From the NCBI GenBank assembly GCA_046563655.1, contig JAJCTO010000010.1, positions 744,001 to 808,000 of the forward strand: a stretch of 64,000 nucleotides of DNA. The letters run 5' to 3'. Source of the stretch: Yuukianura sp. NJ FZ-2021. Lineage: Eukaryota. Below are positions 22,897-41,673 of this stretch, one piece after another. Each line of letters starts with the position of its first letter. The first letter of the stretch is position 1. Made by a program: the position numbers and the translations under genes. The notes under the pieces are model-generated. The model searched no databases and was not told the DNA's origin. It was given only the letters and a program-made list of their open reading frames with translations.

Positions 22897-25800
22897 CTAT
22901 TGTATAATAATGCAGTGGTGAGTTCCACTGTGATCCTCTTCTTCTCTGGCTGGTTCCTCCACTTTTTGAAGAGGGATCTCCTCCCGCTCTTTCTTGGAAT
23001 CAGCTTTTCCACGCTTCCCGCTCTTCTTCTTTGCGCAGCGCCTGCGCACAAGAATTGCTGTCAAAATTCCAAGCATAATTCCAGTGACTGTCCCCCCAAG
23101 TATCCAGGTCCAGTTAGCAGCAGCATGGCGATGGAATTCAAAAACTTTTACAGTTTTTGCTTCCTCCTCGATGTTCCGCTTGTTGTCATTCCAAAATGCG
23201 TCCAACTCCCCAGATATATTTTTCCAATTAATGTGAGGGTTGAGGTGCCAATTAATATGATCTTTTAGGAAAGGGTCTTCCCGCTCCCTAAAAATCATTT
23301 GAAGAACGTTTCCCTTGTATTCGACATCATTCAGGTGAAACGTCAGCGACAACGGCAGAGAGAATACGTTCGGAGGACACTCGATGTTCCGCTTCTTTAT
23401 GGAATACTGACTTCCGGAACAGTAAATGTAGTATTCGTTATCGTAAAACTTAACTTGAATGAATTCCTTCGTGTCACCGTCTACCGGTAAACGACATCCA
23501 TCCAGTTTAAAGTAATGGTCTACAGCTTTAAACGACGAACTGTTTTTGCAATTCGAAAGTGTAGCCAATTCCAGGTTGCTCCTTGGTCGCTCCTTGTGGG
23601 TTTCATACACACAGTCATCATCTACTGACACTGTGGCTAACGTTGGTCCAGCGTATTTCAACTCACAAGTATGAGTTTTGTTCTTGAGCATCAGAGTGAA
23701 ATGATCTGCTTCGACGCGTGTGAGACTTTTGTTGACAGACGGCAATGCGAATTCCATGACAATCTCGTCCCTGGCATGACTCATTTCACAGTGATGAAAA
23801 ATCCCGTACTCGATTGGGCACTCGTCACCACAGGGCAGGGTAAAGTTGAGATATTCGAAGAGGTCAGCGGTAAGCTTCCCTCTGTGCCAAGCCGAGCCAG
23901 TCTCCTTCAGGATCCGTTTCCCCTCCATAAATCTGTTGATGAGGTGAGAAATTATGTACTGTAATTCCACCACCTCCTCTCGGAACAGTGAAAAATCGTT
24001 TCCCAATTTGTCAACTTCTGAGGCCAGTTTTCGAATTTCCTTTTGCAGGATTTCGATCTCTTTTTTATTTACAAAGACTTTCCTTTCGAGCTCGTTGAGG
24101 GCTTCCTTTAATTCGTCGACCTTTGTTTCAATTTCATAAGTCATGGAAACAGCAAAGCCGCCCAGTCCAATGCCGACGCTTGCTAAAGCCACAATAAGGA
24201 CAAAGCCAATTGCTAAAAAAATTTCCCGTTTGTTTTTCTTGCCGACTTCTGCCTTTCTGGGACAGATCGTTTCAAGGTTGTTCAAAAAAATCTCTTCGTA
24301 ACTCTTTTCACAACGTTCTTTCATGAAATTGGCCAAGAGTGGATCAATGCCCGTTAAGGGCATTAGGTCACACGGAGAAATTAATTTAGTTTTCATTGTG
24401 ACCGCCTGGAAACCTGTGATCACTGGATCAAGGCTTTTTCTCCATAAAACCGGACTACCGGTTTTGTAGACGTCGGTGGCTCCACCTATCGTTAAGACAG
24501 TGAGCATGAGAGTCAAAATGCTAAGTGCCACATTTGGTCTTTTAGGAACTACTACTACACTCGACAGTGCTTTTCGCTTGGAACTTTCACACGGATTAGT
24601 CTCCATTCCCATCAGATACCTCTTTTTGACAAAAGTTGCTTTTGGAACTGATTTGGTTAAGATATCAGCGGGTTGTGCTTGATCTGGAAGATGTTCAAGA
24701 CTGACGAGTCTCCGTTCCACCAGCCATCTTATGTAGTGGTGCCTTATGTCGATGTGTTTAGTTTTATCGTGGTATTCTGGATTACGCGCGAGTTTAATCG
24801 CGCTCTGAGAATCTGTCTTAAGGCAAATTCCATCTTCAATTGCTCCTGTAATTCCACATTCTCTAAACATCCGCGTGACCCAAATAGCTTCTTTTCCCGC
24901 GTGGGCCAAGGCTATGTATTCACTTTCAGTACTTGAAAGTGCAATACAGGTTTGACGCTTGCTAATCCAAACGATTGGCGAACCATTGGCAGTGAACAAG
25001 CATCCTGTCGTCGATTTTCGCGAATTTTTGTCGGACCCATAATCCGCGTCAACAAAGCCAAAAATGATTTGACCTTCTTTTGACCTTTCGTAATGAATTC
25101 CAAGGTCCATGGTTCCTTTTAGGTACTGCAGAATTTTCTTGGCTGCATCAAAATGTGACTTTTCAAAATTTGAAAAAAATCTTGCCAAATAGTGCACTGG
25201 ATACGCGATGTCAGGCCAAGTACATCGGGCCAAAAATAGAAGCGACCCAATTAGCTCTCGAAATTCATAATTGGTGTCAGCGGATCGACTGGCTTCCAAT
25301 TGTAGTCCTGGGTTCATTGGAATGTCAGCAGTTTTGCACTCTGACATTTTAAATCGCAGAAGAGTATCTTTGATGTATTTTTGCTGGTGTATGAAAATTC
25401 CTTTTTCATTCTTTTTGATTTCTATTCCAAGAAATCTATCGAGTGGCTGCATGGAGACTTTGAATGTTTTGCTAAGCTCCTTCACTTCTTCTTCATTTTC
25501 CTCTGATGAATCACCAAGAACTAGGCCATCATCAACGAACAGTACAATAAAGGTCACTGACTTTTTCTTTTCCTTTTTGTACACACACGGGTCACTTTCC
25601 AGTGCTTGAAATCCCATTTCCACCAATTTTGCATTGATGGTCACATTCCATGCACGCGGGCCTTGCTTCAACCCATAAAGTCCGCGTTGTAATTTGCAAA
25701 CAAGTCCGTCACCAATTTCAAACCCCTGAGGTTGTTCCATGAATAACTCTTCATTTAACGGGCTGTTGAGGGAAGCAGTGGCGATGTCAAATTGCTTAAC

Positions 25801-26290
25801 ATCCCACGCTTCCGCCGCTGCGAGACTCAACATGATTCTCACGGTCTCGTACCTGCATACTGGCGCAAATGTCTCCTCATAGTCCACTCCTTGAATCTGG
25901 TGAAAACCTTTCACCACAAGCCGGGCTTTGAATTTATTCAAGGATCCGTCCGGATTATTCTTTACTTTAAAAACCCATCGGTTTTTAAGTATTCTTGTCT
26001 TGTTGGGCCTTTTTACAAGAACCCAAGTCTCACTTTCCTGTTGACTGCGCAACTCCGCCTCCATAGCGTCTGTCCATTCGGCAGAATTGTCAGAATTCAT
26101 CGCTTCTTGAAAATTCGAAGGCTCCGAAATTTGATTTCCATGAAGGGCGGAGAATCCAGCTTGAAATCTCTCCACAGGCTTTTTAATTCTTGTGGATCTC
26201 CGCTGTTCCACTGGACCTTCGTCATCCTCATCCTCAATTTCTTCTGCCCAACTCCTCTGGGATGACTCATGACCGCTCTGGTTTCCACTT
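22897..26290 (-). CDS. Copia Pol C-terminal part (RT, RNase H) fused in frame to an envelope/fusion glycoprotein-like domain (~22897-24540)
   Basis: EPSNFQEAM, KARLVVKG, LYGLKQ, FVDD, DADY, SSTESEY, KHIDIR, ADILTK, then hydrophobic signal-like segment, KKNKR plus hydrophobic peptide, heptad repeat, Cys-rich ectodomain, TM helix and basic tail. Confidence 0.92.
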
Positions 26291-26937
26291 TTAGTCTTCT
26301 GGAGACGCATGTCTACGACATGCTGAAGAAGACTATTGATACGACTTTGTCTGTCCGTCCGTAACGTTTTTTAGTACCCTTTGCACTGAAACATTACCTC
26401 CATTATTGACGGGGTGTCCTGTATCGCTCAAGTGTTTTCATTATGTCTACATTCCACTCAAACTGCTATATTAACAATGCAGAATTGTGCGGCTACTTTA
26501 CGTACCCGCAGTATCGTGCCTCCGCAAAACTGTTTTGGTTTCGATTGCACTTAAAGTATTTATAAACAACGGTGTTTTGATCTGGTCATTTTCTGGCAAG
26601 ATGTTTAGTTACGTTGTTAAATTAAGCCTTTTTAGCGGGTTGAAATTCCGGCTTAAATTCATAATATGTAAACAGTGCTTGGTGTGATTCAAATTTGCCT
26701 TTGCATGAAATTTTTATAATTTTGATTTAACACAAGTGATATTCGACTCTATTACTTATGCACTTGATTTAACACATGGTGCACGTATTTTGATTTTAAA
26801 GAAGCAGTATGCTACCCCTGACCCTCAGCGTTCAAATTTTGTGCATGATGCACACCTACATGTAATTATTTTAACGCGTTCACGTATAACACGTTCTGTC
26901 AAAATTTGTGCATATTTGGGCTATTGTGCATTAAAAT

Positions 26938-27070
26938 AATTTTAAAGAGAGCAACAACTGTTCACAGCTCAGGTTGTACAACATTTTGATGCAAACGGTT
27001 TTTCTAAACATTATTTTGATGCAGCTATATTAACGATGTTTGCTAATATTATATTGTCATGGCAACATGA
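26938..27070 (+). repeat. 133-bp direct repeat, copy 1 (copies 2 and 3 at 31290-31422 and 35644-35776), flanking the tandem non-LTR elements
   Basis: AATTTTAAAGAGAGCAAC...TTGTCATGGCAACATGA is the same in three positions. Confidence 0.92.
27053..27066. promoter_or_regulatory. RFX X-box-like motif ATTGTCATGGCAAC (also at ~31405 and ~35759)
   Basis: 12/14 match to the palindromic X-box GTTGCCATGGCAAC, with an intact GGCAAC half-site. Confidence 0.6.
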
Positions 27071-27328
27071 CAAACAACAAACAACAACCACGAAAATTTG
27101 CTCCTCATTTTTCAAGTTTTTTAAGACATTCATTCATCATCTACCAAACTTTTGCTCATATCCTCCGAAGACACTTCGTCTAGTGATCAACTAGTGACAG
27201 GTTTCAAGAAAATACGTTACCACTTCAGCCTGTCCGGACCTGTTTTGTCACTTGGACGTCCAGTCACCGTCAACTATCAAAGTTTTCAACAACAGCGGAT
27301 CCTTCAACTCATTCCCATAGCAACTAAT

Positions 27329-28585
27329 ATGGCTCAACGAAAATTAAAAAATCGAAGCAAAATGAAATCAACATCTATTTCCATGACTCCAGCTCCTGAT
27401 TCTTCATCTGTGCAAACAATGTACAACAGTTTTTCAACAGCCGTTTCGTCTAACGAAAACACGTACAAAACCTCATCAACTCAAGCAGCCGTAGAATTCG
27501 TATCTAAAGTGTCACCAGCTCCAGTTCAGTATGAAGTTTCTTCACCAGTTACTGCATCAAATGGCTTCGGTTCCGACATCGTATCAGTTCCAGCTTCAAG
27601 TTCCTCCGGGTCCCATATTACATCAGTTCCAGCATCAAGTGATTCCGTTCCAGCTTCAAATGACTATGGTTCCTGTATTGAATCAGTTCCAGCTTCAAAT
27701 GACTATGGTTCCTTTCCAGCTTCAAGTTCCTCCGGGTCCCAAATTACATCAGTTCCAGCATCAAGTGATTTCGTTCCAGCTTCAAATGACTATGGTTCCT
27801 GTATTGAATCATTTCCAGCTTCAAATGACTATGGTTCCTGTATTGAATCAGCTCCAGCTTCAAATGGCTTTAGTTCCTGTTTTGAATTAGTTCCAGCTTC
27901 AAGTTCCTCCGGGTCCTTTATTACATCAGTTCCAGCTTCAAATGACCCCAGTTCCTGTATTGAATCAGCTCCAACTTCAAAGGAGTCAGTTCCAGCTTCA
28001 AGTTCCTCCGGGTCCTTTATTACATCAGTTCCAGCTTCAAATGACCCCAGTTCCTGTATTGAATCAGCTCCAACTTCAAAGGAGTCAGTTCCAGTTTCAA
28101 ATGATTCCGGTTCCTGTATTGTACCAGCCCCAGCATCAAATGACTTCGGTTGCCGTACCGCATCAGCTCCAATCACTGTTATTGCTTCAAGTTCATCCTC
28201 AGTCCCAACTACCAATCAACACGTTTCCAGTCCTCCTTGTCTCACTAGAACACTCCAGAATCGCAAAATAACAGATGAATGGATTGCTAATAACATCATT
28301 TCGTCCGCCAGTGGCTCAATTCGAAAATTAGACGTCAAATCCAAATACCATCAGTTTTGCAACTCTCTCAACATTCGTCCAGTCGTTGACACCACCTTCG
28401 GTACCAAACTACGAAAGTTATTCCCTTCGATGTCCACAGTTCGTGCCGGAGGTCGCCGTCATTCCGAACAGTCCTACTCCGGCATTGCTTGGAAGGATGT
28501 TTGCTCGCAATTCCACAGAAGAAGACCTAGGAAGCATTCTCGCAAAACTCAAACCATCGACACACACGATGAAGCACGTTCCTAA
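27329..28585 (+). CDS. N-terminal region of non-LTR protein: Ser-rich repeats plus RFX-type winged-helix DNA-binding domain (~28270-28495)
   Basis: WIANNI...Y..FC....IRPV....FGTKLRKLFP......RAGGRRHSEQSYSGI matches the recalled RFX DBD pattern WL..NY...Y..C....P....FGK..R..F....RRLG.RG.SKY.Y.GI. Confidence 0.75.
   Translation: MAQRKLKNRSKMKSTSISMTPAPDSSSVQTMYNSFSTAVSSNENTYKTSSTQAAVEFVSKVSPAPVQYEVSSPVTASNGFGSDIVSVPASSSSGSHITSVPASSDSVPASNDYGSCIESVPASNDYGSFPASSSSGSQITSVPASSDFVPASNDYGSCIESFPASNDYGSCIESAPASNGFSSCFELVPASSSSGSFITSVPASNDPSSCIESAPTSKESVPASSSSGSFITSVPASNDPSSCIESAPTSKESVPVSNDSGSCIVPAPASNDFGCRTASAPITVIASSSSSVPTTNQHVSSPPCLTRTLQNRKITDEWIANNIISSASGSIRKLDVKSKYHQFCNSLNIRPVVDTTFGTKLRKLFPSMSTVRAGGRRHSEQSYSGIAWKDVCSQFHRRRPRKHSRKTQTIDTHDEARS
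27575..28200 (+). repeat. Coding minisatellite (CAGTTCCAGCTTCAAATGAC.../VPASNDYGSCIES-type units); copy at ~31927-32552
   Basis: Many degenerate in-frame repeats of TCCAGCTTCAA spaced mostly 21-39 bp apart. Confidence 0.85.
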
Positions 28586-31422
28586 AGGTGCAAGGGTCAC
28601 TGCCGCGTCCAGGCTTTCAGACTTCATTGATGAAGTGACTTCAACTAATTCCGCCGAGTCATGGTCAAACCTTTTGCTTTTCCCATTCTTCGCGTTTCGT
28701 CTTCCTAGGCCGACCGTGTCACCAAGCTCACCTCCTGGGTAAAATCCAATATCTGCACCTTGTCACCTTCTTCGGCTCTCAACGTTTCAACATTAATCTT
28801 GGAAACTTCAAGCACTCCACAATCAAATTCAGCCATTCAGTCCCACATTATTCAATCTAAACTTGCTGATGGAGACATTCACGGTGCAGTTCGTATTTTA
28901 TGTTCCGATGACTCAATGGCCAATGAAGATTCTTCTACATTAGACGCTCTTGAACGATTACATCCTCCTCATCCAGTAGCACTCCAGTTTCCAGATCGTC
29001 AACAATCATCTGAAGTTGTCTTCGACGAACTCGAACTGCTAAAATCAATCTCTTCTTTTCCGAATGGTTCGGCCGGAGGTCTCGACTCTCTGCGACCTCA
29101 AGTACTGAAAGAGCTAACTTCAAAAATTACTGGCGATTCCGGTCAAAAACTTCTGTCTTCCATAACGAAGCTTGCAAACCTCATCATTAACAACACCATC
29201 CCTGAAGTAATACGTCCGATCTTCTACGGTGCCTCTTTAATTGCACTCCAGAAAAAAAAAGGTGGGATCCGCCCTATCGCGATTGGATTGACCTGGCGCC
29301 GGATAGCATCAAAGCTTGTCTTATCGAGATCAATGAAAGACATCGTCTCATACCTGAGCCCGGTACAAATTGGGGTAGGAGTCAACAACGGTTCTGAAGC
29401 TGCAGGCCACGCCGCTAGGATCTACGTCAATTCTCCACATTCTTCCAGTAAAGTCATGCTCAAGATTGATTTCAAGAACGCCTTTAACCTCATCAGAAGA
29501 GATAAAATGCTAGATTCTGTTAAATCTCTCATTCCCGACTTCTATAACTTCATCCATCAAGCTTATTCATCAGACTCGAATTTATTTTACGGTTCTTCCA
29601 AAATCAAATCGAGCCTTGGAGTCCAACAAGGCGATCCGATCGGTCCCGCCCTCTTCGCCATCACCATCCAGCCACTGGCAACAGCAATCCAGTCAGAGTT
29701 TAACGTATGGTATCTCGACGACGCAACCATAGCCGACAAGCCGGAAACAGTCCTGAAGTATCTGCAGCATATCACCACCAACGCAGCATCTTTTGGCCTA
29801 CAACTAAACACACAGAAATGTGAGATTATCGTCATCGGTGGCGATGAAATGGAGTCCAGAGCCATCACTAGTTCATTTCTTTCGTTCGCACCTGATATAC
29901 GAGTCTGCAATGAAGAAGACGCCGAACTACTCGGAGCCCCATTATCCAAAGCTTCTGGACGACGGATCTTGAAGATTAAGACCGACGATTTCGACAGACT
30001 TTCGTCTAAGCTGCTAGCTCTTCCGGCTCACGTGGCTTTTTTCTTACTAAGAGCTTCAATTTCGTTTCCAAGACTGACATACTTCCTTCGCTGCGCACCA
30101 TCATTTCTTGAAGAAGACCTACTGAAGGACTACGATGATTCTCTTCGTAAAGTTTTGGAAAAAATTCTCAACATAAGCCTTTCTGAAAATGCCTGGATTC
30201 AAACATCTCTGCCGGTGGCACAAGGAGGTTTGGGAATCCGCCAAGCTAACGATTGCGCTACGCTCTGTTTTTTGGCTTCAATCTTTAGCTGCGCAGACCT
30301 AATCACCTCCTTCCTACCTGGTAACCTATCACCTTTCGATGCATCGTACGACTTGGCAACTTTCAAATGGTCCAACGACGATTTTGATTTTCCATCTAAT
30401 CACAAAGTTCAGAAGGAATGGGAGATATTAAAGTCATCGAAAATTTACACCAGTCTGCTGAACAACTCCACCACTTTGACTGACAAAGCAAGACTAATTG
30501 CTGCCGCTTCTGCTCATTCCGGTGATTGGCTGAAGGCCTTACCCTCTTCACAACTGGGGACTCTTCTATCCAACGAATGCTTCAGAATTTCGTGCTCCTT
30601 GCGTCTTGGCACCAACTTATGTCTACCCCACAAATGTCGCTGTGGTGCAACTGTTAACGAAGACGGTCTTCACGGGCTGAGTTGTCCGAAAAGTGCAGGA
30701 AGACACTCAAGACATGGTTCAATCAACGATATTATTGCTCGAGCCTTTCAAACAGCCGGAGTCCCTAGCCTGAAAGAACCTCCAGGTTGTTCTCGTTCGG
30801 ATGGAAAACGCTCCGACGGCATCACTTTGATACCTTGGAATACTGGACGTTGTTTGGTGTGGGACGTCACTTGCCGAGACACTTATGCCAACTCGTACCT
30901 CTCCATTTCCTCTTCTTCAAGTGGCTATCCTGCCGCTTTGGCTGAAATCCAGAAACACAAAGTGTATCAAGACCTAAATCATCAATTCATCGTCTCCATC
31001 ATTGCTGTTGAAACTTCGGGGTCTTCGGAGCCGAAGGACTAATTCTCATCAAGTCAATTGGTCAACGTCTTGCCGAGGTCACCGGTGAACTCCGATCCAC
31101 CAACTTTTTGCTTCAACGGATTAGCATCGCCATTCAACGTGGCAACTCCGCATCAATTCTTGGCACTCTTCCCCCGGGGAAAGGATTGGACGAAATTTTT
31201 ACCTCTAACTTTTCTCAATATATACTCTAAACCTTTTCAACCTGCCCTAGGCAGGTGTTTGTGAATTTTATAATAAAATATAAAATAAGAATTTTAAAGA
31301 GAGCAACAACTGTTCACAGCTCAGGTTGTACAACATTTTGATGCAAACGGTTTTTCTAAACATTATTTTGATGCAGCTATATTAACGATGTTTGCTAATA
31401 TTATATTGTCATGGCAACATGA

Positions 31423-34400
31423 CAAACAACAAACAACAACCACGAAAATTTGCTCCTCATTTTTCAAGTTTTTTAAGACATTCATTCATCATCTACCAAA
31501 CTTTTGCTCATATCCTCCGAAGACACTTCGTCTAGTGATCAACTAGTGACAGGTTTCAAGAAAATACGTTACCACTTCAGCCTGTCCGGACCTGTTTTGT
31601 CACTTGGACGTCCAGTCACCGTCAACTATCAAAGTTTTCAACAACAGCGGATCCTTCAACTCATTCCCATAGCAACTAATATGGCTCAACGAAAATTAAA
31701 AAATCGAAGCAAAATGAAATCAACATCTATTTCCATGACTCCAGCTCCTGATTCTTCATCTGTGCAAACAATGTACAACAGTTTTTCAACAGCCGTTTCG
31801 TCTAACGAAAACACGTACAAAACCTCATCAACTCAAGCAGCCGTAGAATTCGTATCTAAAGTGTCACCAGCTCCAGTTCAGTATGAAGTTTCTTCACCAG
31901 TTACTGCATCAAATGGCTTCGGTTCCGACATCGTATCAGTTCCAGCTTCAAGTTCCTCCGGGTCCCATATTACATCAGTTCCAGCATCAAGTGATTCCGT
32001 TCCAGCTTCAAATGACTATGGTTCCTGTATTGAATCAGTTCCAGCTTCAAATGACTATGGTTCCTTTCCAGCTTCAAGTTCCTCCGGGTCCCAAATTACA
32101 TCAGTTCCAGCATCAAGTGATTTCGTTCCAGCTTCAAATGACTATGGTTCCTGTATTGAATCATTTCCAGCTTCAAATGACTATGGTTCCTGTATTGAAT
32201 CAGCTCCAGCTTCAAATGGCTTTAGTTCCTGTTTTGAATTAGTTCCAGCTTCAAGTTCCTCCGGGTCCTTTATTACATCAGTTCCAGCTTCAAATGACCC
32301 CAGTTCCTGTATTGAATCAGCTCCAACTTCAAAGGAGTCAGTTCCAGCTTCAAGTTCCTCCGGGTCCTTTATTACATCAGTTCCAGCTTCAAATGACCCC
32401 AGTTCCTGTATTGAATCAGCTCCAACTTCAAAGGAGTCAGTTCCAGTTTCAAATGACTCCGGTTCCTGTATTGTACCAGCCCCAGCATCAAATGACTTCG
32501 GTTGCCGTACCGCATCAGCTCCAATCACTGTTATTGCTTCAAGTTCATCCTCAGTCCCAACTACCAATCAACACGTTTCCAGTCCTCCTTGTCTCACTAG
32601 AACACTCCAGAATCGCAAAATAACAGATGAATGGATTGCTAATAACATCATTTCGTCCGCCAGTGGCTCAATTCGAAAATTAGACGTCAAATCCAAATAC
32701 CATCAGTTTTGCAACTCTCTCAACATTCGTCCAGTCGTTGACACCACCTTCGGTACCAAACTACGAAAGTTATTCCCTTCGATGTCCACAGTTCGTGCCG
32801 GAGGTCGCCGTCATTCCGAACAGTCCTACTCCGGCATTGCTTGGAAGGATGTTTGCTCGCAATTCCACAGAAGAAGACCTAGGAAGCATTCTCGCAAAAC
32901 TCAAACCATCGACACACACGATGAAGCACGTTCCTAAAGGTGCAAGGGTCACTGCCGCGTCCAGGCTTTCAGACTTCATTGATGAAGTGACTTCAACTAA
33001 TTCCGCCGAGTCATGGTCAAACCTTTTGCTTTTCCCATTCTTCGCGTTTCGTCTTCCTAGGCCGACCGTGTCACCAAGCTCACCTCCTGGGTAAAATCCA
33101 ATATCTGCACCTTGTCACCTTCTTCGGCTCTCAACGTTTCAACATTAATCTTGGAAACTTCAAGCACTCCACAATCAAATTCAGCCATTCAGTCCCACAT
33201 TATTCAATCTAAACTTGCTGATGGAGACATTCACGGTGCAGTTCGTATTTTATGTTCCGATGACTCAATGGCCAATGAAGATTCTTCTACATTAGACGCT
33301 CTTGAACGATTACATCCTCCTCATCCAGTAGCACTCCAGTTTCCAGATCGTCAACAATCATCTGAAGTTGTCTTCGACGAACTCGAACTGCTAAAATCAA
33401 TCTCTTCTTTTCCGAATGGTTCGGCCGGAGGTCTCGACTCTCTGCGACCTCAAGTACTGAAAGAGCTAACTTCAAAAATTACTGGCGATTCCGGTCAAAA
33501 ACTTCTGTCTTCCATAACGAAGCTTGCAAACCTCATCATTAACAACACCATCCCCGAAGTAATACGTCCGATCTTCTACGGTGCCTCTTTAATTGCACTC
33601 CAGAAAAAAAAAGGTGGGATCCGCCCTATCGCGATTGGATTGACCTGGCGCCGGATAGCATCAAAGCTTGTCTTATCGAGATCAATGAAAGACATCGTCT
33701 CATACCTGAGCCCGGTACAAATTGGGGTAGGAGTCAACAACGGTTCTGAAGCTGCAGGCCACGCCGCTAGGATCTACGTCAATTCTCCACATTCTTCCAG
33801 TAAAGTCATGCTCAAGATTGATTTCAAGAACGCCTTTAACCTCATCAGAAGAGATAAAATGCTAGATTCTGTTAAATCTCTCATTCCCGACTTCTATAAC
33901 TTCATCCATCAAGCTTATTCATCAGACTCGAATTTATTTTACGGTTCTTCCAAAATCAAATCGAGCCTTGGAGTCCAACAAGGCGATCCGATCGGTCCCG
34001 CCCTCTTCGCCATCACCATCCAGCCACTGGCAACAGCAATCCAGTCAGAGTTTAACGTATGGTATCTCGACGACGCAACCATAGCCGACAAGCCGGAAAC
34101 AGTCCTGAAGTATCTGCAGCATATCACCACCAACGCATCATCTTTTGGCCTACAACTAAACACACAGAAATGTGAGATTATCGTCATCGGTGGCGATGAA
34201 ATGGAGTCCAGAGCCATCACTAGTTCATTTCTTTCGTTCGCACCTGATATACGAGTCTGCAATGAAGAAGACGCCGAACTACTCGGAGCCCCATTATCCA
34301 AAGCTTCTGGACGACGGATCTTGAAGATTAAGACCGACGATTTCGACAGACTTTCGTCTAAGCTGCTAGCTCTTCCGGCTCACGTGGCTTTTTTCTTACT

Positions 34401-35643
34401 AAGAGCTTCAATTTCGTTTCCAAGACTGACATACTTCCTTCGCTGCGCACCATCATTTCTTGAAGAAGACCTACTGAAGGACTACGATGATTCTCTTCGT
34501 AAAGTTTTGGAAAAAATTCTCAACATAAGCCTTTCTGAAAATGCCTGGATTCAAACATCTCTGCCGGTGGCACAAGGGGGTTTGGGAATCCGCCAAGCTA
34601 ACGATTGCGCTACGCTCTGTTTTTTGGCTTCAATCTTTAGCTGCGCAGACCTAATCACCTCCTTCCTACCTGGTAACCTATCACCTTTCGATGCATCGTA
34701 CGACTTGGCAACTTTCAAATGGTCCAACGACGATTTTGATTTTCCATCTAATCACAAAGTTCAGAAGGAATGGGAGATATTAAAGTCATCGAAAATTTAC
34801 ACCAGTCTGCTGAACAACTCCACCACTTTGACTGACAAAGCAAGACTAATTGCTGCCGCTTCTGCTCATTCCGGTGATTGGCTGAAGGCCCTACCCTCTT
34901 CACAACTGGGGACTCTTCTATCCAACGAATGCTTCAGAATTTCGTGCTCCTTGCGTCTTGGCACCAACTTATGTCTACCCCACAAATGTCGCTGTGGTGC
35001 AACTGTTAACGAAGACGGTCTTCACGGGCTGAGTTGTCCGAAAAGTGCAGGAAGACACTCAAGACATGGTTCAATCAACGATATTATTGCTCGAGCCTTT
35101 CAAACAGCCGGAGTCCCTAGCCTGAAAGAACCTCCAGGTTGTTCTCGTTGGGATGGAAAACGCTCCGACGGCATCACTTTGATACCTTGGAATACTGGAC
35201 GTTGTTTGGTGTGGGACGTCACTTGCCGAGACACTTATGCCAACTCGTACCTCTCCATTTCCTCTTCTTCAAGTGGCTATCCTGCCGCTTTGGCTGAAAT
35301 CCAGAAACACAAAGTGTATCAAGACCTAAATCATCAATTCATCGTCTCCATCATTGCTGTTGAAACTTCGGGGGTCTTCGGAGCCGAAGGACTAATTCTC
35401 ATCAAGTCAATTGGTCAACGTCTTGCCGAGGTCACCGGTGAACTCCGATCCACCAACTTTTTGCTTCAACGGATTAGCATCGCCATTCAACGTGGCAACT
35501 CCGCATCAATTCTTGGCACTCTTCCCCCGGGGAAAGGATTGGACGAAATTTTTTACCTCTAACTTTTCTCAATATATACTCTAAACCTTTTCAACCTGCC
35601 CTAGGCAGGTGTTTGTGAATTTTATAATAAAATATAAAATAAG
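31423..35643 (+). mobile_element. CRE-clade-like non-LTR retrotransposon, copy 2 (tandem, near-identical)
   Basis: Period 4352 bp relative to copy 1; RT-RLE ORF 33112-35562 complete through LLQRISIAIQRGNSASI. Confidence 0.9.
33112..35562 (+). CDS. Reverse transcriptase plus RLE endonuclease
   Basis: Same RT motifs as copy 1; intact C-terminus AVETSG...QRGN. Confidence 0.9.
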   Translation: MSPSSALNVSTLILETSSTPQSNSAIQSHIIQSKLADGDIHGAVRILCSDDSMANEDSSTLDALERLHPPHPVALQFPDRQQSSEVVFDELELLKSISSFPNGSAGGLDSLRPQVLKELTSKITGDSGQKLLSSITKLANLIINNTIPEVIRPIFYGASLIALQKKKGGIRPIAIGLTWRRIASKLVLSRSMKDIVSYLSPVQIGVGVNNGSEAAGHAARIYVNSPHSSSKVMLKIDFKNAFNLIRRDKMLDSVKSLIPDFYNFIHQAYSSDSNLFYGSSKIKSSLGVQQGDPIGPALFAITIQPLATAIQSEFNVWYLDDATIADKPETVLKYLQHITTNASSFGLQLNTQKCEIIVIGGDEMESRAITSSFLSFAPDIRVCNEEDAELLGAPLSKASGRRILKIKTDDFDRLSSKLLALPAHVAFFLLRASISFPRLTYFLRCAPSFLEEDLLKDYDDSLRKVLEKILNISLSENAWIQTSLPVAQGGLGIRQANDCATLCFLASIFSCADLITSFLPGNLSPFDASYDLATFKWSNDDFDFPSNHKVQKEWEILKSSKIYTSLLNNSTTLTDKARLIAAASAHSGDWLKALPSSQLGTLLSNECFRISCSLRLGTNLCLPHKCRCGATVNEDGLHGLSCPKSAGRHSRHGSINDIIARAFQTAGVPSLKEPPGCSRWDGKRSDGITLIPWNTGRCLVWDVTCRDTYANSYLSISSSSSGYPAALAEIQKHKVYQDLNHQFIVSIIAVETSGVFGAEGLILIKSIGQRLAEVTGELRSTNFLLQRISIAIQRGNSASILGTLPPGKGLDEIFYL

Positions 35644-36109
35644 AATTTTAAAGAGAGCAACAACTGTTCACAGCTCAGGTTGTACAACATTTTGATGCAA
35701 ACGGTTTTTCTAAACATTATTTTGATGCAGCTATATTAACGATGTTTGCTAATATTATATTGTCATGGCAACATGAGCAACGCAGTTGGAGGTTGTTTAG
35801 TAAGTTGTTTATTGCTATCAATTATTTTTAAGAAATTTTGTCATTTTGAATTTCTAATTTCAACTACTCAACCTCGACCTTCAATTTTGTTCGAATACAG
35901 TCTACTCTTAAAGATAACTTTGACAATTCTTTGACTCTCATTCAAGTGTATAATTTATAGCTTAATTCTCAGTATTCAATTCTATTTTTGAGTGCATAAT
36001 TTGAAGTTTAGTAAAATTTTATTTATTATCTTCGGGTAAGAATGTTTTTTAATCTCATGGTCTCAAAGTATGCTCAATTACATTTCACTTCATTATTTCA
36101 GATAGAATT

Positions 36110-39100
36110 ATGTCAAATCAACAGCAGCGTGCTAGGGCAAGGAACCGTTTGCAGTTATTTCGGGAGAATGAATCTAGGCGGCAAGGAGAACAGGATAATA
36201 ATACTACATCACGTCGCTTAGCTCGCGACAACGGAGATTATCGCGAAGTTGAACAAGTTCGTAACTCCGTTGCTCATCGAAATGCTAGACTGGATGATGA
36301 CCGCCGTCGGCAAGAACAAGCTCGTGATTCCGAGGCTCATCGCAACGTTCGTGCTCAGTTTCAAGATCGAAGCTGGGAGTCCGTCGTTGAGTTGTTTGAA
36401 GCTAGCTGCAGAGAAGGTCCCTCGAATACTTGTCTCTGCTGCGGTGGTCTGTGGTTTAAGAAATCAATTAAGCACCTACAACGCTCAGATTGTGCTCAAT
36501 GCGATGAAAACTTTTTGAACATTGTCTTTTCTAATAATGAACTGGAAGGAGACTTTTGTATCACATGTTATGCGGCGGTGAAATCTGGTCGTAACTCTCG
36601 ACTGGGTTTAACCAATGGTCTCCAGTTCCCGGCCGTACCACCTGAAGTAGCGTCTTTGACACGGTTGGAAGCCAGATTAGCGTCGCCCTACCATGTCTTT
36701 CAAGCGATTTGGGCTGTGCAAGGACCACAAGGTATACATTTTGATTCTTCAAAAATTAGCTCACAATTTGATTCGTTTGGCTAATAACAATATTTGTAGG
36801 TCAATTGAAGACGAAGGGACGGATTGTGAATGTTCCAGTTTCCGTGACAAATATTGTTCAAAGTCTGCCTCGCCTCCCTTCAGACGATTCAGTCCTGCAT
36901 CTTCGGCTGGCCCGTCAGATGCATGTTGAGAAGAATTATACTTCCGGAAACATCCGTCCAGAAAAAGTTCTTCAAGCCGCTGAAGTTCTCTGCCAATCTC
37001 CGTTGTACACCCAACATGGTGTGAAAGTCTCCCATTCCTGGCTGGCGGATTCTCGTCGAGAATTGACTTCAGTGGACTCTAGCCTGGAGAGTCGGCTCGA
37101 AAACTCTCTTATTCTCTCGAGCGAAGTACAGCCGGGAGGAGAATTTGAAGAATCCACCACAAATGAAACTCTGCTGACCGATAGCGCTGGACTTCGGATG
37201 GCCCCTGCAGAGGGAAATCGCCCCGTTTCTGTTCTCCTTGACGAAGATTCTGTATTCCTAGCTTTTCCTCAGTTGTTCGCCGGACACAAGATGAATCCCA
37301 TTTTTGCTGGGAAGAAAGTGTCACGTGCTGACATGTTCAAGTCTTTTGCTAGGAATAAGGATCGGCGTGCGGCTGAATCCGTGGATTTTCTTTTATTCAT
37401 GGCGAAGACATTGGAAATCTCGCGAATAGCAAGCAACAGAAACATACACCTTAGGAAGCGAAGACTTAACGGAGAGCTCATTGTTCCCACAGCCGGCCAA
37501 GTCTTACACCAGACTTACGTCGATGGACTCATCAGAGACGATAATGCTTACAAAGTTCTGGCAGGCATCAGAAACGCAGGCACTCACTGGAAAAACGAGG
37601 GAAACAAAGTTCGTGCCATGATTCGAACCTTTGGAATTGCTACATTGTTCGTGACCGTCAGTGCTGCAGAGCTGAAATGGAATGAGCTGGTTGTTTTGTT
37701 GAAAAAAATTTTGGATGGCGTCGAAATTTCAGAACAGGAAGCACAAGAGTTACCGAACTCTGAAAAGGCACTGCTGATTCAGCGAGATCCAATCACATGT
37801 GCGCGGTACTTCGACCACCGTTACTCCGCGCTGAAAGCAACTTACCGCTCAAAAAACGGGCCATTTGGTGCCCATGAAATACTTCATTTCTACGAAAGAG
37901 TAGAGTTCCAGCACCGAGGAAGCCCGCATGTGCATGCGATGTTTTGGCTCTCCGATGCTCCAGTTTTCAATCCTGAGAACGACACACACGACGAAGTCAT
38001 CGATTTCATTGACAGAATGATAACTTGCAGTACAAGCTACCCTGACGATGATCCAATCACTGGTTTACTATCGCTCCAAACTCATCGGCACACACATACG
38101 TGCTACAAGCGAACACACAAGGGAGTCCAATGTCGTTTTGGAATACCGTTCTTCCCGATGGATAAAACTCGGATCCTTATACCTTTGGAAGACCCGGCAG
38201 ACTCCAAGGAGCTCAAGCTACAGCACAAATCGATTCGTGAATTTTTGGAAGCTCAAATCCCGAACGCGGGAATGTCATTTGAAGAATTCCTAGGTGCCAT
38301 AACTTGCGATCTACCTCTCTATTTACGCGTGATACAAGTTAAACTAAAGAAGCCTCATGTGTTTTTGAAACGTAAACCGAGCCAAATCTATATCAACGCC
38401 TACAACGAGAAGATTTTGCGACTGCAAAAGTCCAATATGGATATTCAATATATACTTGATCCATACGAATGTTGTAGCTATATTGTTGACTACATAAACA
38501 AAAGCAATCGAGGTCTTTCGGAACTCTTGAGGAATGTTGTGGACGAAGTGCGGAAAGGAAACAAACCGCTGAAAGACAGCCTGCAAGCAATTGGGGCAGC
38601 TCACAACCTAAACAGCGAATTATCCGCACAAGAAGCCGCTTACAATGTTTTACAGCTGCCAATGAGCTACTCTTCGGAGAAGTGTGTCTTTGTTCAGACT
38701 GGTCCTGCCAGCCATCGTACAAGAATGTTGAAGTCTCAGGCGGATCTATCGCAATTGGAAGCCGAAGACCGGAACATCTTCTTTAACAGTTCAACTGATC
38801 ACTACGCTCAACGCCCAATTGCATTGGAGTCCCTGAATCTAGCACAATTCTCGGCTTGGTTTGAGTATTCTAAAACTTTAAGGCGACCAATTGTTGAACC
38901 AGATGAGGAAAATGGGGCAACAGCTGAAGAAGAAACGGGAACTGAAGTTTATAAATTGCAGGACGGGTCTGGATATGTACGGAAGCGAAAATTTGCAAAG
39001 GTCATACGGTACGTGCGTTACAACAAAGAGAAAGATCCGGACAACTTCTTCAGAGAACTCCTGATGCTCTTCAAACCCTGGAGAGACGAGGAACAAGAGT

Positions 39101-41673
39101 GTGGCGAAGATATCGACTGTCATCGAATTGTAGCGGACAACATAGGCTTGATCACCAGAAATAGAAAAGAATTTAACTTTTTCGACGACGCTATACTTGA
39201 TGCTGCAATGGAGGAAGTCCTTGCGAGGCCGCCGGAAGATGTAGTTGACCTGGATGAGAATCAGCCTTCCTTGGAGGATCTACGTGAATATCGTCTAGAA
39301 GATGCATCTGGATCAAATTCAGTTGACTTTGGCTCCTACGAAAGACGCCCATTTGCGGAAAGCTTCAAGAATCCACAACTGGCATCCAATGAGGAGTACT
39401 GGGCGCTACTCGCCTCGTTGAATGACGAGCAGCGAGATTTGGTGTATCATATATTTGACCAAGTCAAGAGACATAGCACTACTCCTTTCCAGATTTACTT
39501 GAAGGGAGGAGCCGGTGTCGGGAAGTCCCATGTCATCAAAACACTGCACCAAGGATTACTTAGAATTTTTAACTCCGATGTACATCATAATCCTGAGAAA
39601 GTTTCTGTACTTCTGGTGGCTCCAACAGGAAAGGCGGCATTCAACATCGGAGGCTCGACGCTTCACACAGCCTTTCAGCTGCCGGTGAACCAACGTGAGG
39701 CTGGATCACTTTCTGCAGACGTCTCTAACACTATGGCTACCACTTATTCAGAACTAAAGGTCTCGTTTTGTTTTTTATAATTTGTATTACTAACTGATAG
39801 TAATTGTACTTTATCATTTTCAGATCGTGATCTGCGATGAGATCAGTATGGTGGGTGAACACCTTTTGGAGCAGGTCGACAAGCGCTTGAGAGATTTATT
39901 CAATCAAACCGCACCTTTCGGGGAAATCTCCTTCATAGCCGTTGGGGACTTTTATCAGCTACCACCAGTTCTGGCCGTCCCGTTGACTCACGGAACAATG
40001 AGCAACTCCATCTCCTTATTATTCTGTCGTCCGCTTTGGCATCATTTTCTTGTTCATGAGTTAACGACAATCATGCGCCAAAGTGAGGATGTCGCCTTTG
40101 CTGTGGCTCTCAACAATATGGCAAGGGGAATAATGACTGAAGAAGACAAGGCGTTAATGCGGACTCGTTGCTTTGACACTTTGCCCTCGGAGGTGGCTGA
40201 GCTGAGACCAATTCATTTCTTCCAGACCAACGCTGCCGTTAACGCATTCAACGACATGTACCTTCAGCAGATGGCGGGAGAACTGATTCTTAGTAGAGCT
40301 GCCGACTGTGTTCGAGGAGATGTCCCTCAATCGTCGAAACTTCGGCTACTACAACGGTTTCAAACAAAGCCTTTGAATGAGACGATGGGACTTGCACTCG
40401 AGCTACAACTCAAAATTAACGCTCGTTATATGATGACCAACAACGTCGATTGTGCTGACGGATTAGTGAATGGGGTAACTGGAATATTACGCAGAATCGA
40501 TCTTGGCGTTGCGATAAACGACCCAACCGACCGCATTCCAATGCGACTGTGGCTGGAGTTCGAAGATACTAGAAGTGGTCAACAATTGCGCCGCCGGTAC
40601 GAGTCAATTGTAGAAAATTTGGGCATAGAAACGAGTTGGACTCCAGTAGAACTGCTTACACAAGAGATACACCAAAAAAATGCCAGCATCAAGATTACAA
40701 GAAAACAGTTTCCACTTGTTCCTGCAGAAGCAATCACCATTCATAAGAGCCAAGGAATCACGTGTCAAGCGTAAGTTTATTGAACTGCAACTATATAAAC
40801 TATACCTTAAACTTCAAATTCAAAATTTGCAGAGCTGTGCTACATCTCAACCATACCCATCATATATCACGCGCATTGATCTACGTTGGATGCTCCAGAC
40901 CAACCAAAGCTAGTGGCCTTTACATCGTGGGGGATTTCCGAGCTCCTAAACCTATTCCACCTACAAGCCCACTTGCTTTGGAAATGGCCCGCCATGAAAC
41001 GATGAAGCTTTTACCAGTATTTCGATCACTCCGCCAGCGAGAAGACGGTTTAATTCAGTTTCTGTACCACAACGTCCAATCACTTCCTAAGCACTCAGCT
41101 CTTTATTCGAATGATGCAGCTTTCAAATTCTCCGACATTCTTCTATTTGTGGAGACCTGGACCTTAGCGAACGACAAGTTTAAGATTGGTGACCACATCG
41201 AAGTATGTAGCGTTGATTGCGCGCCTCCACGACGACCCATAGGCGCAAGAATCTACTTACGACAGCATTTGGCACATCGCGTTCTGAGTACAACAACTAA
41301 ATATGTTGAAGGGAACAGTGGAAGTTGCAGCTGTGTTGGATTGAATTTTTCTGGAACAAGCGTTATTGGAATCTACATTAGCCCCAGCTTTCCTTGGACT
41401 TCCTTTGTGTCAACACTTTTATCTGCAATCACCTCTCTGGGTGGATCAAGGACTATTGTGGCCGGAGACTTCAACTGCAATTTCAAACTAACTGCTTCAG
41501 TTGAACTGAGATCGATGCTTGATCTTGGACTAGAACTACAATCTCCTGAACTTCCAACAACAAAATTCGGGACAAAAATCGACGCAGTTTTTGCTTCATT
41601 TCAATTGGATAAAATTGGATTATACACCTCCGCAACATCAATCCACGAACCTATTTGGGGGAGGTTCTCTTAA
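36110..41673 (+). CDS. Helentron Rep (HUH-Y2) - Pif1 helicase - AP endonuclease; 4 exons (36110-36731, 36800-39759, 39824-40770, 40833-41673)
   Basis: VEFQHRGSPHVH and YIVDYINK Rep motifs; GGAGVGKS, DEISM, GDFYQLPPV, TIHKSQG helicase motifs; HNVQSL, ETW, GDFN, ID endonuclease motifs. All three GT-AG introns keep the frame. Confidence 0.92.

What the first reader, a model, noticed from the sequence alone, without database searches (positions are those of the whole stretch)
26938..35776. Non-LTR retrotransposon with an RFX DNA-binding domain inserted 4 bp from an RFX X-box: candidate new targeting system
Seen: the CRE-like element encodes an RFX-type winged helix upstream of RT (~28270-28495; FGTKLRKLFPSMSTVRAGGRRHSEQSYSGI). 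Its 5' junction lies 4 bp after ATTGTCATGGCAAC (27053-27066), a 12/14 match to the X-box GTTGCCATGGCAAC. Known: RLE-bearing non-LTR elements (R2, CRE, NeSL) pick targets using N-terminal zinc-finger or Myb domains; I do not recall an RFX domain in that role. Inference: the element captured a transcription-factor DBD and uses it to target X-box sites, here just upstream of the Helentron Rep gene, possibly as a parasite of Helentrons. Alternatively the X-box is an autoregulatory site belonging to the element.
Basis: partly seen in the sequence, partly recalled or inferred. Interest (0 to 1): 0.9.

Follow-up and report, generated by a model that had tools for sequence, protein, structure and literature searches.

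The report
LINE retrotransposon carrying an RFX domain
Two tandem, broken copies of a jumping gene whose protein carries a genuine RFX DNA-binding domain lie next to an RFX-type binding motif, but this is a single insertion and cannot show that the domain chooses the target.

Summary
The region is U-E-U-E-U: two 99.8% identical copies (E, about 4.22 kb) of a non-LTR retrotransposon, separated and flanked by three copies of a 133-bp unit (U). The family ORF reads S/P-rich repeats, RFX winged helix, RT, CCHC knuckle, then a restriction-like endonuclease (RLE).

The RFX call is solid:
- Pfam scores 45 bits.
- The sequence matches PDB RFX5 at 6e-9.
- The predicted fold superposes on RFX5 and on RFX1-DNA at 1.3-1.5 A.

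RFX is in frame with RT in 12 of 120 homologues. All of them fall in one clade, which includes Folsomia candida proteins.

Both window copies are defective. They lack 11 nt and 4 nt that higher-depth contigs of the same species carry.

A sequencing contig holds left flank, one U and right flank. U is therefore target DNA, and the insertion made a 133-bp target-site duplication.

The X-box-like site ATTGTCATGGCAAC ends 4 bp before the 5' junction, and such a match is rare by chance. A second, weaker match lies in the element's 5'UTR.

Targeting is unproven:
- There is only one independent insertion.
- The contig bridging this junction has far lower depth than the element's interior.
- None of 8 related RFX-bearing loci shows an X-box upstream.

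I rate it a new variant of a known kind.

The parts
26938..27070 (.). U1, first copy of the 133-bp target-site duplication (host or Helitron-associated repeat DNA)
   Evidence: Three identical copies. Position 26937 differs (T against G in the other copies), so the unit starts at 26938. A single unit lies between the same flanks in X3 record 17.
27053..27066 (.). X-box-like palindrome ATTGCATGGCAAC-type site (ATTGTCATGGCAAC) in the target, ending 4 bp before the 5' junction; repeated at 31405-31418 and 35759-35772
   Evidence: 12/14 match to GTTGCCATGGCAAC and 13/14 to GTHNYYATRRNAAC.
27071..31289 (+). E1, element copy 1 (about 4.22 kb), defective
   Evidence: It carries an extra 1-nt deletion at 31017 that ends the ORF early, at 31042.
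27071..27328 (+). 5'UTR. The first 18 nt (CAA/CAAA repeats) lie upstream of where the higher-depth subfamily contig begins to align (27089)
   Evidence: X1 record 2.
27311..27324 (.). Second X-box-like site, ATTCCCATAGCAAC, inside the element, ending 4 nt before the ATG; repeated at 31663-31676
27329..28585 (+). ORF start (ATG at 27329) and N-terminal part, up to the first frame break
27587..28172 (+). Coding tandem repeats (periods 39, 60, 99 and 126 nt) that give an S/P-rich N-terminal region
   Evidence: Similar 42-nt repeats occur in L001, and a repeat-rich N-terminus in P0025.
28268..28495 (+). RFX winged-helix DNA-binding domain (copy 1)
28501..28706 (+). Segment thrown out of frame. Higher-depth contigs of the species carry 11 more nt after 28501 and 4 more nt after 28706
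   Evidence: table 4. P0008 and P0021 align to the shifted frame here.
29249..29833 (+). Reverse transcriptase core (RVT_1), copy 1
30635..30874 (+). CCHC zinc knuckle (30635-30685) and RLE core (30701-30874), copy 1
31290..31422 (.). U2, second copy of the 133-bp unit
31423..35643 (+). E2, element copy 2. It has the same two frame-breaking deletions but is otherwise open to the stop at 35560-35562
32620..32847 (+). RFX domain, copy 2
33601..34185 (+). RT core, copy 2
34987..35226 (+). CCHC knuckle (34987-35037) and RLE core (35053-35226), copy 2
35563..35643 (+). 3'UTR with AATAAA and an A-rich tail. Other copies diverge from 35617-35621 (31267 in copy 1) onward
   Evidence: table 7.
35644..35776 (.). 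U3, third copy of the 133-bp unit
36053..40774 (+). Context: Helitron-like Rep/helicase gene (DUF6570, Helitron_like_N, PIF1) in three broken frames, starting about 330 bp downstream of U3

Best explanation
The locus holds two tandem, recently duplicated and defective copies of a non-LTR retrotransposon of the restriction-like-endonuclease (RLE) group.

Shown:
- The family's single ORF reads S/P-rich repeats, RFX winged helix, RT, CCHC knuckle, RLE.
- The RFX domain was captured once near the base of a clade and has been kept down to about 40% RT identity.
- The element entered a repeated, Helitron-associated sequence by target-primed reverse transcription. The two nicks were 133 bp apart: the bottom strand at 26937/26938 and the top strand at 27070/27071. 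This gave a 133-bp target-site duplication.

Inferred:
- Unequal exchange between the duplicated units produced the present U-E-U-E-U array.
- By position, and by analogy with the zinc-finger and Myb domains of R2, the RFX domain is the element's DNA-binding module. It most likely positions the protein on target DNA for second-strand nicking.
- The X-box-like site ending 4 bp before the top-strand nick fits this, but it is a single event.
For: - RFX identity: Pfam 45.1 bits; PDB RFX5 6.3e-9; fold TMt 0.89 and 0.87 to RFX5 and RFX1-DNA.
- RLE identity: the 7 best fold hits are R2 proteins. The CCHC residues and acidic residues are invariant in 32 sequences.
- Fusion is a family trait. 9 of 120 listed homologues carry precomputed PF02257+PF00078, and 12 of 120 match my own RFX HMM. 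All 13 RFX rows, window included, sit in one clade of 26 of 119 rows with SH-like support 98. The label is clustered in 0 of 500 shuffles.
- An uninterrupted frame exists across this segment in the species. Contigs of depth 395-493 carry +11 nt and +4 nt (15 in total) at the two frame breaks (table 4). Homologues align to the shifted frame between the breaks.
- U is target DNA. X3 record 17 (453 nt) is left flank, one U and right flank (table 8). Other copies diverge about 22 nt before the E/U boundary into A-rich tails (table 7).
- The X-box is rare by chance. A <=2-mismatch match has probability 2.2e-6 per position, or about 2e-4 for 80 positions around the two junctions (my arithmetic). A second, 11/14 site lies 258 bp away in the 5'UTR.
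- A long TSD has a precedent in RLE elements: 126 bp in R9 (passage in PMC9977147).
Against: - There is only one independent insertion. The two copies share both deletions and differ by 7 substitutions and 2 indels, so they are a DNA-level duplication.
- The U-to-E junction contig (X2 record 15) has depth 55, against 309-786 inside the element. Most copies are not at this site.
- 0 of 8 RFX-bearing related loci have a <=2-mismatch X-box in the DNA upstream of the ORF. One (L001) has an 11/14 match that overlaps a Kozak-like ACCATGG. Whether those contigs reach their 5' junctions is unknown.
- No long flanking repeat was found in the 7 related contigs I searched. L003 has only a shared 12-mer.
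- In the window's domain the wing segment reads S-E-Q where RFX1 and RFX5 have S-K-Y. This wing is the most variable part among the RT-fused domains, so X-box specificity cannot be assumed.
- With the loose consensus GTHNYYATRRNAAC at <=1 mismatch, the window as a whole is not enriched: 15 matches against 11.1 expected, and 18 of 100 shuffles reach 15.
- The motif was noticed post hoc.
Confidence: 0.6

Rival explanations
1. The RFX domain is real, but the neighbouring X-box is coincidence. The element inserts without RFX-directed sequence choice. The domain serves another purpose, such as chromatin or nucleosome tethering, binding of the element's own nucleic acid, or nuclear retention.
For: - There is one insertion event only.
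- Most copies lie at other junctions.
- 0 of 8 related loci have a <=2-mismatch X-box upstream.
- The wing residues diverge.
- The closest solved relative is RFX5 in a nucleosome-bound complex (entry title only).
- The 133-bp nick spacing is close to nucleosome size (my inference).
Against: A 12/14 palindrome match within 4 bp of the junction is expected about 2e-4 times by chance (my arithmetic). A second related motif lies 258 bp away. In the RLE elements studied so far, N-terminal DNA-binding domains bind target DNA (R2 literature, passages).
Confidence: 0.3
2. The X-box-like motifs are regulatory. Host RFX factors, or the element's own RFX domain, bind the 5'UTR site to drive or limit transcription. 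The site in U is the Helitron-like element's own promoter motif.
For: - An 11/14 site ends 4 nt before the ATG and is present in both copies.
- In the roughly 8% diverged subfamily contig (X1 record 2), no difference is listed between 27239 and 27331. However, only 18 of its 27 differences are shown.
- The U site lies about 340 bp upstream of the Rep ATG.
Against: No comparable motif appears upstream of the ORF in 7 of 8 related loci, and the one exception overlaps a Kozak-like ATG. No expression data were examined.
Confidence: 0.08
3. The 133-bp unit is part of the element (its 3' or 5' end), and the array is a head-to-tail concatemer with one truncated copy. The X-box would then be an internal terminal motif.
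For: The U-E-U-E-U layout alone allows this reading.
Against: - A contig carries the unit once between the same left and right flanks with no element (X3 record 17). X1 record 1 and X2 record 9 bridge the left flank into U.
- Other element copies diverge about 22 nt before U (table 7).
- The U-to-E junction contig has roughly 6 to 14 times lower depth than contigs inside the element.
Confidence: 0.02

Closest known systems
R2 retrotransposons (R2Bm, R2Tg; solved structures 8gh6, 9dou, 9nl2/3)
   Same: Both have a single ORF with an N-terminal DNA-binding region, RT, a CCHC knuckle and a C-terminal restriction-like endonuclease. The C-terminal fold matches R2 best. Both insert by TPRT with separate bottom- and top-strand nicks.
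   Different: There are no zinc-finger or Myb domains: Pfam finds only RFX in the N-terminal 486 aa. The RT is only distantly similar (E 3e-7, close to the 3.5e-5 obtained for L1 ORF2p). The insertion is not in 28S rDNA. The 3' tail is A-rich and variable, and the TSD is 133 bp.
Utopia / NeSL elements (Kojima and Jurka 2015, PMC4640811, passages read)
   Same: They are RLE elements with variable N-terminal modules (1-3 zinc fingers, Ulp1-like protease, RNase H). Their target specificity ranges from strict to weakened, and their 5' junctions are variable.
   Different: The paper has 0 occurrences of 'RFX' or 'winged'. Its TSDs are 0-20 bp. Phylogenetic membership was not tested here.
R9 of bdelloid rotifers (Gladyshev and Arkhipova 2009; known to me only from its title and a passage in PMC9977147)
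   Same: It is an RLE-type element that makes an exceptionally long TSD, 126 bp against 133 bp here.
   Different: R9 is specific for 28S rDNA. I have no information on its N-terminal domains, because the paper itself was not read.
Cellular RFX transcription factors (RFX1-3 with a BCD domain; RFX5/7 with RFX5_N)
   Same: The DNA-binding fold is the same (TMt 0.87-0.89). The conserved W, K, Y, FGK, FP and Y-G-I positions are kept.
   Different: There is no dimerisation or BCD domain and no RFX5_N domain. The domain is fused to RT and RLE. The wing segment differs (S-E-Q where RFX1 and RFX5 have S-K-Y). Identity to cellular domains is 31-38%.
CRE / SLACS / CZAR elements
   Same: They are RLE-type elements. 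From my recollection only, they have N-terminal zinc fingers and a 49-bp TSD in spliced-leader genes.
   Different: The label 'CRE-like' is untested.

Membership tests
RFX DNA-binding domain (Pfam PF02257) | Profile score above Pfam's gathering threshold | tested here: met
   45.1 bits against a cutoff of 27, E 1.5e-11, profile positions 3-78 of 79.
RFX DNA-binding domain (Pfam PF02257) | RFX-type winged-helix fold rather than another winged helix such as D5/primase | tested here: met
   Model pLDDT 93.2. RFX5 gives TMt 0.89 and rmsd 1.3 A; RFX1-DNA gives TMt 0.87 and rmsd 1.5 A. The next hit has E 0.28, and primase or P4 origin-binding winged helices have E >= 0.7.
RFX DNA-binding domain (Pfam PF02257) | Conserved DNA-reading wing residues | tested here: inconclusive
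   The two Arg and the Ser of the wing are kept. The K-Y of S-K-Y is E-Q in the window, and the segment varies among the 13 RT-fused domains. Which residues contact bases is recalled, not checked.
RFX DNA-binding domain (Pfam PF02257) | Binds X-box DNA | not testable with these tools
   This needs EMSA, SELEX or a protein-binding microarray.
RLE-bearing non-LTR retrotransposons (R2/NeSL/CRE/Hero/R4 group) | LINE-type reverse transcriptase | tested here: met
   RVT_1 at 1e-19. Best PDB sequence hits are the R2 protein (3e-7) and L1 ORF2p (3.5e-5).
RLE-bearing non-LTR retrotransposons (R2/NeSL/CRE/Hero/R4 group) | CCHC knuckle followed by a PD-(D/E)XK-type endonuclease C-terminal to RT | tested here: met
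   C24/C26/H36/C40 and E71, D84, D100 and K130 are invariant or nearly so in 32 sequences. The 7 best fold hits are R2 proteins, followed by restriction endonucleases and Prp8.
RLE-bearing non-LTR retrotransposons (R2/NeSL/CRE/Hero/R4 group) | Single ORF with an N-terminal nucleic-acid-binding module | tested here: met
   RFX and RT share one frame. Homologues of 988-1363 aa carry both domains. The window copies themselves are broken.
RLE-bearing non-LTR retrotransposons (R2/NeSL/CRE/Hero/R4 group) | Sequence-specific insertion | tested here: inconclusive
   There is one independent insertion. The contig bridging this junction has far lower depth than the element's interior. Junctions of other copies could not be read.
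R2 clade proper | N-terminal zinc finger(s) plus a Myb domain | tested here: not met
   Pfam at E<=1 finds only RFX in the N-terminal 486 aa.
R2 clade proper | Insertion in the conserved 28S rDNA site | tested here: not met
   The flanks are a repeated, Helitron-associated sequence, and Rfam finds no rRNA in 26300-36200.
   No reference sequences were available. No spliced-leader RNA family was found in 26300-36200.
Helentron (context element) | Rep/helicase plus a C-terminal AP endonuclease | tested here: inconclusive
   Helitron_like_N and PIF1 are found. No endonuclease family appears in the 2 ORFs after the helicase (39794-40774, 40747-41673) at E<=1e-3. The gene is broken into several frames.

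The most novel reading that the evidence does not exclude
A clade of restriction-like-endonuclease LINEs replaced the usual zinc-finger/Myb targeting module with a captured RFX transcription-factor domain and uses it to home to X-box-type palindromes. The RFX-bound protein would set the top-strand nick 4 bp from the motif, while first-strand nicking occurs about one nucleosome length (133 bp) upstream. That would be a natural example of retargeting an R2-like machine by swapping its DNA-binding domain, with a well-defined 14-bp recognition site.
Probability: 0.2. Interest if true: 0.85.

Novelty: new variant of a known kind. Interest (0 to 1): 0.6.

Why it matters
RLE-type LINEs such as R2 are the model for site-specific retrotransposition and are being engineered for gene insertion. 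How their N-terminal domains set the target is a central question in that work (passages in PMC13580325 and PMC13188248).

This is a natural clade in which a classical transcription-factor DNA-binding domain with a known palindromic site sits where zinc fingers and Myb normally do. It would show that these machines are retargeted in nature by domain swapping, and it gives a directly testable pair of domain and candidate site.

The 133-bp target-site duplication is slightly longer than the 126 bp reported for R9 and cited as a large TSD.

There is also a practical point. Some Folsomia candida database proteins named 'RFX-like transcription factor daf-19' or 'RFX-type winged-helix domain-containing protein' are retrotransposon ORFs.

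Tried and rejected
- Whole-genome search: no genome is held for this window, so a logo of all insertion flanks could not be built.
- Earlier findings of this scan: nothing by place or by sequence.
- Reads. The 93 unaligned letters at the start of X1 record 2 were not printed. Flanks of other copies therefore remain unseen. X1 record 5 has only 30 letters on the U side and was not counted as bridging. The X4 joint 26715 to 35679 has a side of 28 and was not used.
- Related loci. The metagenome scan gave 21 loci, 8 with the RFX region. No two share a 5' end, so junctions could not be defined. L018 and L021 are 99.9% alike over 1196 nt but differ at both ends; I judged this a possible assembly chimera and did not use it.
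- X-box scans of these loci with four different definitions found nothing near the 5' regions, apart from the L001 11/14 match.
- TSD search in the 7 contigs searched found none. L003 has a 12-mer shared between positions 500 and 4099, which is possibly a 12-bp TSD but is unconfirmed.
- Genome contigs gave 0 relatives among 100 pattern matches. Viral contigs gave 1 weak match, L022 (30% identity, E 2e-5), which I did not follow up.
- Rfam: no family at E<=1 in 26300-36200, so no recognisable 5' ribozyme.
- ESM Atlas gave only generic RVT_1 clusters at scores of 0.90 or below.
- The IQ-TREE-type search did not finish in 288 s, so the tree is FastTree only.
- Papers. Fell et al. 2025 (Nature), an inventory of RLE elements, is not held and may contain such elements. 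The R9 paper itself was not read. A search for papers naming the base-contacting residues of RFX1 gave nothing usable.
- A search for PHD or OTU domains in RLE elements gave no classification.

Full report
**Anatomy**

Window 26938-35776 is an array U-E-U-E-U. U is a 133-bp unit present three times and identical each time: 26938-27070, 31290-31422 and 35644-35776. E is an element of about 4.22 kb present twice: 27071-31289 and 31423-35643. The two element copies differ by 7 substitutions and 2 single-base indels.

Each element copy reads as follows:
- A 258-nt 5'UTR, then an ATG at 27329.
- A stretch of coding tandem repeats (periods 39 to 126 nt) that gives an S/P-rich region.
- The RFX domain at 28268-28495.
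- An RT core at 29249-29833.
- A CCHC knuckle at 30635-30685 and an endonuclease core at 30701-30874.
- In copy 2, a stop at 35560-35562, followed by an 81-nt 3'UTR with AATAAA and an A-rich end.

**Is the RFX domain real?**

Yes.
- Pfam gives RFX_DNA_binding at 45.1 bits against a cutoff of 27, E 1.5e-11. It is the only family reported at E<=1 in the 486-aa N-terminal frame.
- phmmer against all PDB chains finds only RFX5 (6.3e-9) and the RFX1 DNA-binding domain (3.4e-3).
- An AlphaFold model built on an 18-row alignment has pLDDT 93.2. It superposes on RFX5 (TMt 0.89, rmsd 1.3 A) and on the RFX1-X-box cocrystal (TMt 0.87, rmsd 1.5 A). The third hit has E 0.28.
- phmmer against 1.84 billion representatives gives 73 hits at E<=1e-3. 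All 20 that I scanned with Pfam carry PF02257. They include cellular RFX factors with BCD or RFX5_N domains and one further RT-fused protein, P0188.

**Is the rest an RLE-type LINE?**

Yes.
- RVT_1 scores about 1e-19.
- The C-terminal 214 aa fold with pLDDT 87.8. Their best 7 structural matches are all R2 retrotransposon proteins (E 7.7e-7 to 1.8e-4), followed by restriction endonucleases and Prp8.
- The CCHC residues and the acidic and lysine residues are invariant or nearly so in 32 aligned sequences.

It is not an R2 proper. There is no zinc finger or Myb domain. The RT matches the R2 protein only at 3e-7, not far from the 3.5e-5 obtained for L1 ORF2p. There is no rRNA in the flanks.

**Is the fusion a family feature or an accident of this locus?**

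It is a family feature.
- tblastn shows RFX and RT in one frame.
- Of the 120 best homologues of the RT ORF, 9 carry precomputed PF02257+PF00078. 12 match an RFX HMM that I built from 8 of them; the 4 independent matches are P0006, P0018, P0019 and P0025.
- I built a FastTree of the RT-RLE region with 119 rows: the window plus the 118 of 120 homologues that passed my coverage filter. All 13 RFX rows fall in one clade of 26 rows with SH-like support 98. The label is as clustered in 0 of 500 shuffles.
- The 13 rows of that clade without RFX include several short models (737-866 aa) that may simply lack the N-terminus. I did not resolve this.
- Named members are Folsomia candida proteins, some annotated as 'RFX-like transcription factor daf-19'.
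- Elsewhere in the wider family the N-terminal region carries PHD, SAP, C2H2, OTU or UCH domains, so this region is modular.
- Several RFX-bearing members also have a PHD-like finger upstream. The window element, P0001, L001 and P0025 have S/P-rich repeats instead.

**State of the window copies**

Both copies are defective. The segment 28501-28706 is out of frame. P0008 and P0021 align there in the shifted frame. Contigs from sequencing runs of the same species, at depth 395-493, carry 11 extra nt after 28501 and 4 extra nt after 28706. That is 15 nt in all, which restores one frame (table 4). Copy 1 also lacks one G at 31017 and ends early.

Because both copies share the two deletions, the tandem duplication happened at the DNA level after the damage. 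The simplest route is unequal exchange between the flanking U units (inference).

By contig depth, the element's interior (309-941 in X1 and X2) is several-fold to about 15-fold above neighbouring low-copy contigs (46-81). The family is therefore multi-copy in this genome. Depth from contigs is a rough guide only.

**What is U?**

U is target DNA.
- X3 record 17 (453 nt, depth 23.7) lies on 26749-26972 and continues on 35682-35908. That is left flank, exactly one U and right flank, at about 95% identity, so it is a paralogous or diverged empty site (table 8).
- X1 record 1 and X2 record 9 bridge the left flank into U with the same differences.
- Other element copies stop matching the window at 31267/35621 (X4 at 35617), about 22 nt before U, and continue as different A-rich sequence (table 7).

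The insertion therefore made a 133-bp target-site duplication. The bottom-strand nick was at 26937/26938 and the top-strand nick at 27070/27071 (inference from the TPRT model).

A long TSD has a precedent in RLE elements: 126 bp in R9, which I know only from a passage in PMC9977147 and from the paper's title.

The runs are not independent of the window. X1 to X3 are one sample and may be the source of the assembly.

**The X-box**

ATTGTCATGGCAAC at 27053-27066 ends 4 bp before the 5' junction. It matches GTTGCCATGGCAAC at 12 of 14 positions, and the degenerate form GTHNYYATRRNAAC (recalled) at 13 of 14.

- By base composition, a <=2-mismatch match to the palindrome has probability 2.2e-6 per position, or 0.14 per 64 kb. 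The window has 4, three of which are the U copies and one is at 57892.
- For 80 positions around the two junctions, that gives about 2e-4 (my arithmetic, post hoc).
- At <=3 mismatches the window has 7 matches against 1.86 expected. Two of them are the two copies of ATTCCCATAGCAAC at 27311-27324 and 31663-31676, inside the element's 5'UTR and ending 4 nt before the ATG.
- So two independent X-box-like sites lie within 272 bp at the element's 5' end.
- With the loose consensus at <=1 mismatch, the window as a whole is not enriched: 15 matches against 11.1 expected, and 18 of 100 shuffles reach 15.

**Does the element target X-boxes?**

This is not shown.
- There is one independent event.
Most copies are therefore elsewhere, and the element is not a dedicated parasite of this Helitron site.
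- I could not read the flanks of those other copies. No genome is held, and the single read laying answer was truncated.
- Among 21 related metagenome loci, 8 include the RFX region. 0 of those 8 have a <=2-mismatch X-box upstream of the ORF. One, L001 (the closest intact relative), has an 11/14 match overlapping a Kozak-like ACCATGG.
- Those contigs may not reach their junctions, and their RFX wings differ from the window's. This is weak negative evidence.
- No long flanking repeats were seen in the 7 contigs searched.

**Most likely mechanism**

This is an RLE LINE that inserts by TPRT.

Shown: the domain order, the RFX and RLE folds, retention of RFX across a clade, the 133-bp duplication of target DNA, and the proximity of the motif to the top-strand nick.

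Inferred: the RFX domain occupies the place of R2's target-binding zinc finger and Myb domains and is the DNA-binding module. In R2, N-terminal domains position the protein on target DNA, and second-strand nicking is a separate step (passages in PMC13580325 and PMC13188248). Here, an RFX-bound protein at the X-box-like site would place the top-strand nick 4 bp away, with the first nick 133 bp upstream.

I put about 0.5 on the RFX domain binding target DNA. I put 0.2-0.3 on X-box-type motifs being the preferred target.

**Context**

- Downstream, at 36053-40774, is a Helitron-like Rep/helicase gene (DUF6570, Helitron_like_N, PIF1) in three broken frames. No AP endonuclease was found, so 'Helentron' is unverified.
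- Upstream, on the minus strand at 22897-26370, is a Copia-type pol (RVT_2).
- The left flank 26300-26967 belongs to very abundant repeats, with summed contig depth of up to about 1.5e5.

**Literature**

- Searches for RFX with 'non-LTR retrotransposon' gave 7 papers, none about such an element by title or abstract start.
- RFX with reverse transcriptase, retrotransposon, winged helix and endonuclease gave 0 papers.
- The Utopia paper and the 2026 R2 diversity paper have 0 occurrences of 'RFX'. The 2026 R2 review has 0 occurrences of 'winged'; I did not search it for 'RFX'.
- Fell et al. 2025, an inventory of RLE elements, is not held. Repbase could not be consulted.
- The fusion is visible in public protein databases, but it is not described in anything I could search.

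**Verdict**

This is a new variant of a known kind: an RLE LINE with an RFX domain as its N-terminal module, and a 133-bp TSD. X-box targeting remains an attractive hypothesis, testable directly but unproven.

Noticed in passing
P0121-P0127: The best hits of the RFX query are proteins of 867-1089 aa made of 4-5 tandem RFX DNA-binding domains. Pfam adds only sub-threshold winged-helix overlaps such as Pox_D5. A multi-RFX architecture of this kind is unfamiliar to me.
   Followed up: partly
window 22897-26370 (- strand): This 1157-aa open frame has a Copia-type RT (RVT_2, 1.3e-61). It runs on in frame into a long C-terminal part with a hydrophobic segment near the start and another near the end, which looks like an envelope-type protein fused to pol. 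The gag, protease and integrase side is missing towards 26370.
   Followed up: no
window 26300-26967: The left flank belongs to extremely abundant repeats, with summed contig depth of about 1.5e5 in X1 and X2 against tens for neighbouring DNA. Many variant joints replace about 90-110 nt between 26728 and 26835 (tables 2 and 5).
   Followed up: no
window 27587-28172; L001 561-1291; P0025 N-terminus: Three RFX-bearing elements independently carry in-frame tandem repeats that encode S/P-rich peptides upstream of the RFX domain. The periods are 39-126 nt in the window and 42 nt in L001.
   Followed up: partly
P0018, P0025, P0005: Folsomia candida database proteins named 'RFX-like transcription factor daf-19', 'RFX-type winged-helix domain-containing protein' and 'R2DM pol polyprotein' are ORFs of this retrotransposon clade. 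They could inflate counts of RFX transcription factors.
   Followed up: partly
L003 450-511 and 4099-4110: A 12-mer (ACAAAATTATTT) occurs 13 nt before the first ATG and again 57 nt after the stop, which may be a 12-bp TSD. About 30 nt upstream of the first copy lies CATAGCAAC, the same 9-mer as in the window's 5'UTR motif, followed by GGTTGCG.
   Followed up: no
window 43056-46458: ORFs carrying DUF1759, DUF5641 and a weak integrase core (rve) are consistent with a BEL/Pao-type LTR element downstream of the Helitron-like gene.
   Followed up: no
window 57892-57905: The only other 12/14 match to the X-box palindrome in the window is GTTTCCTTGGCAAC. No element is inserted next to it.
   Followed up: no
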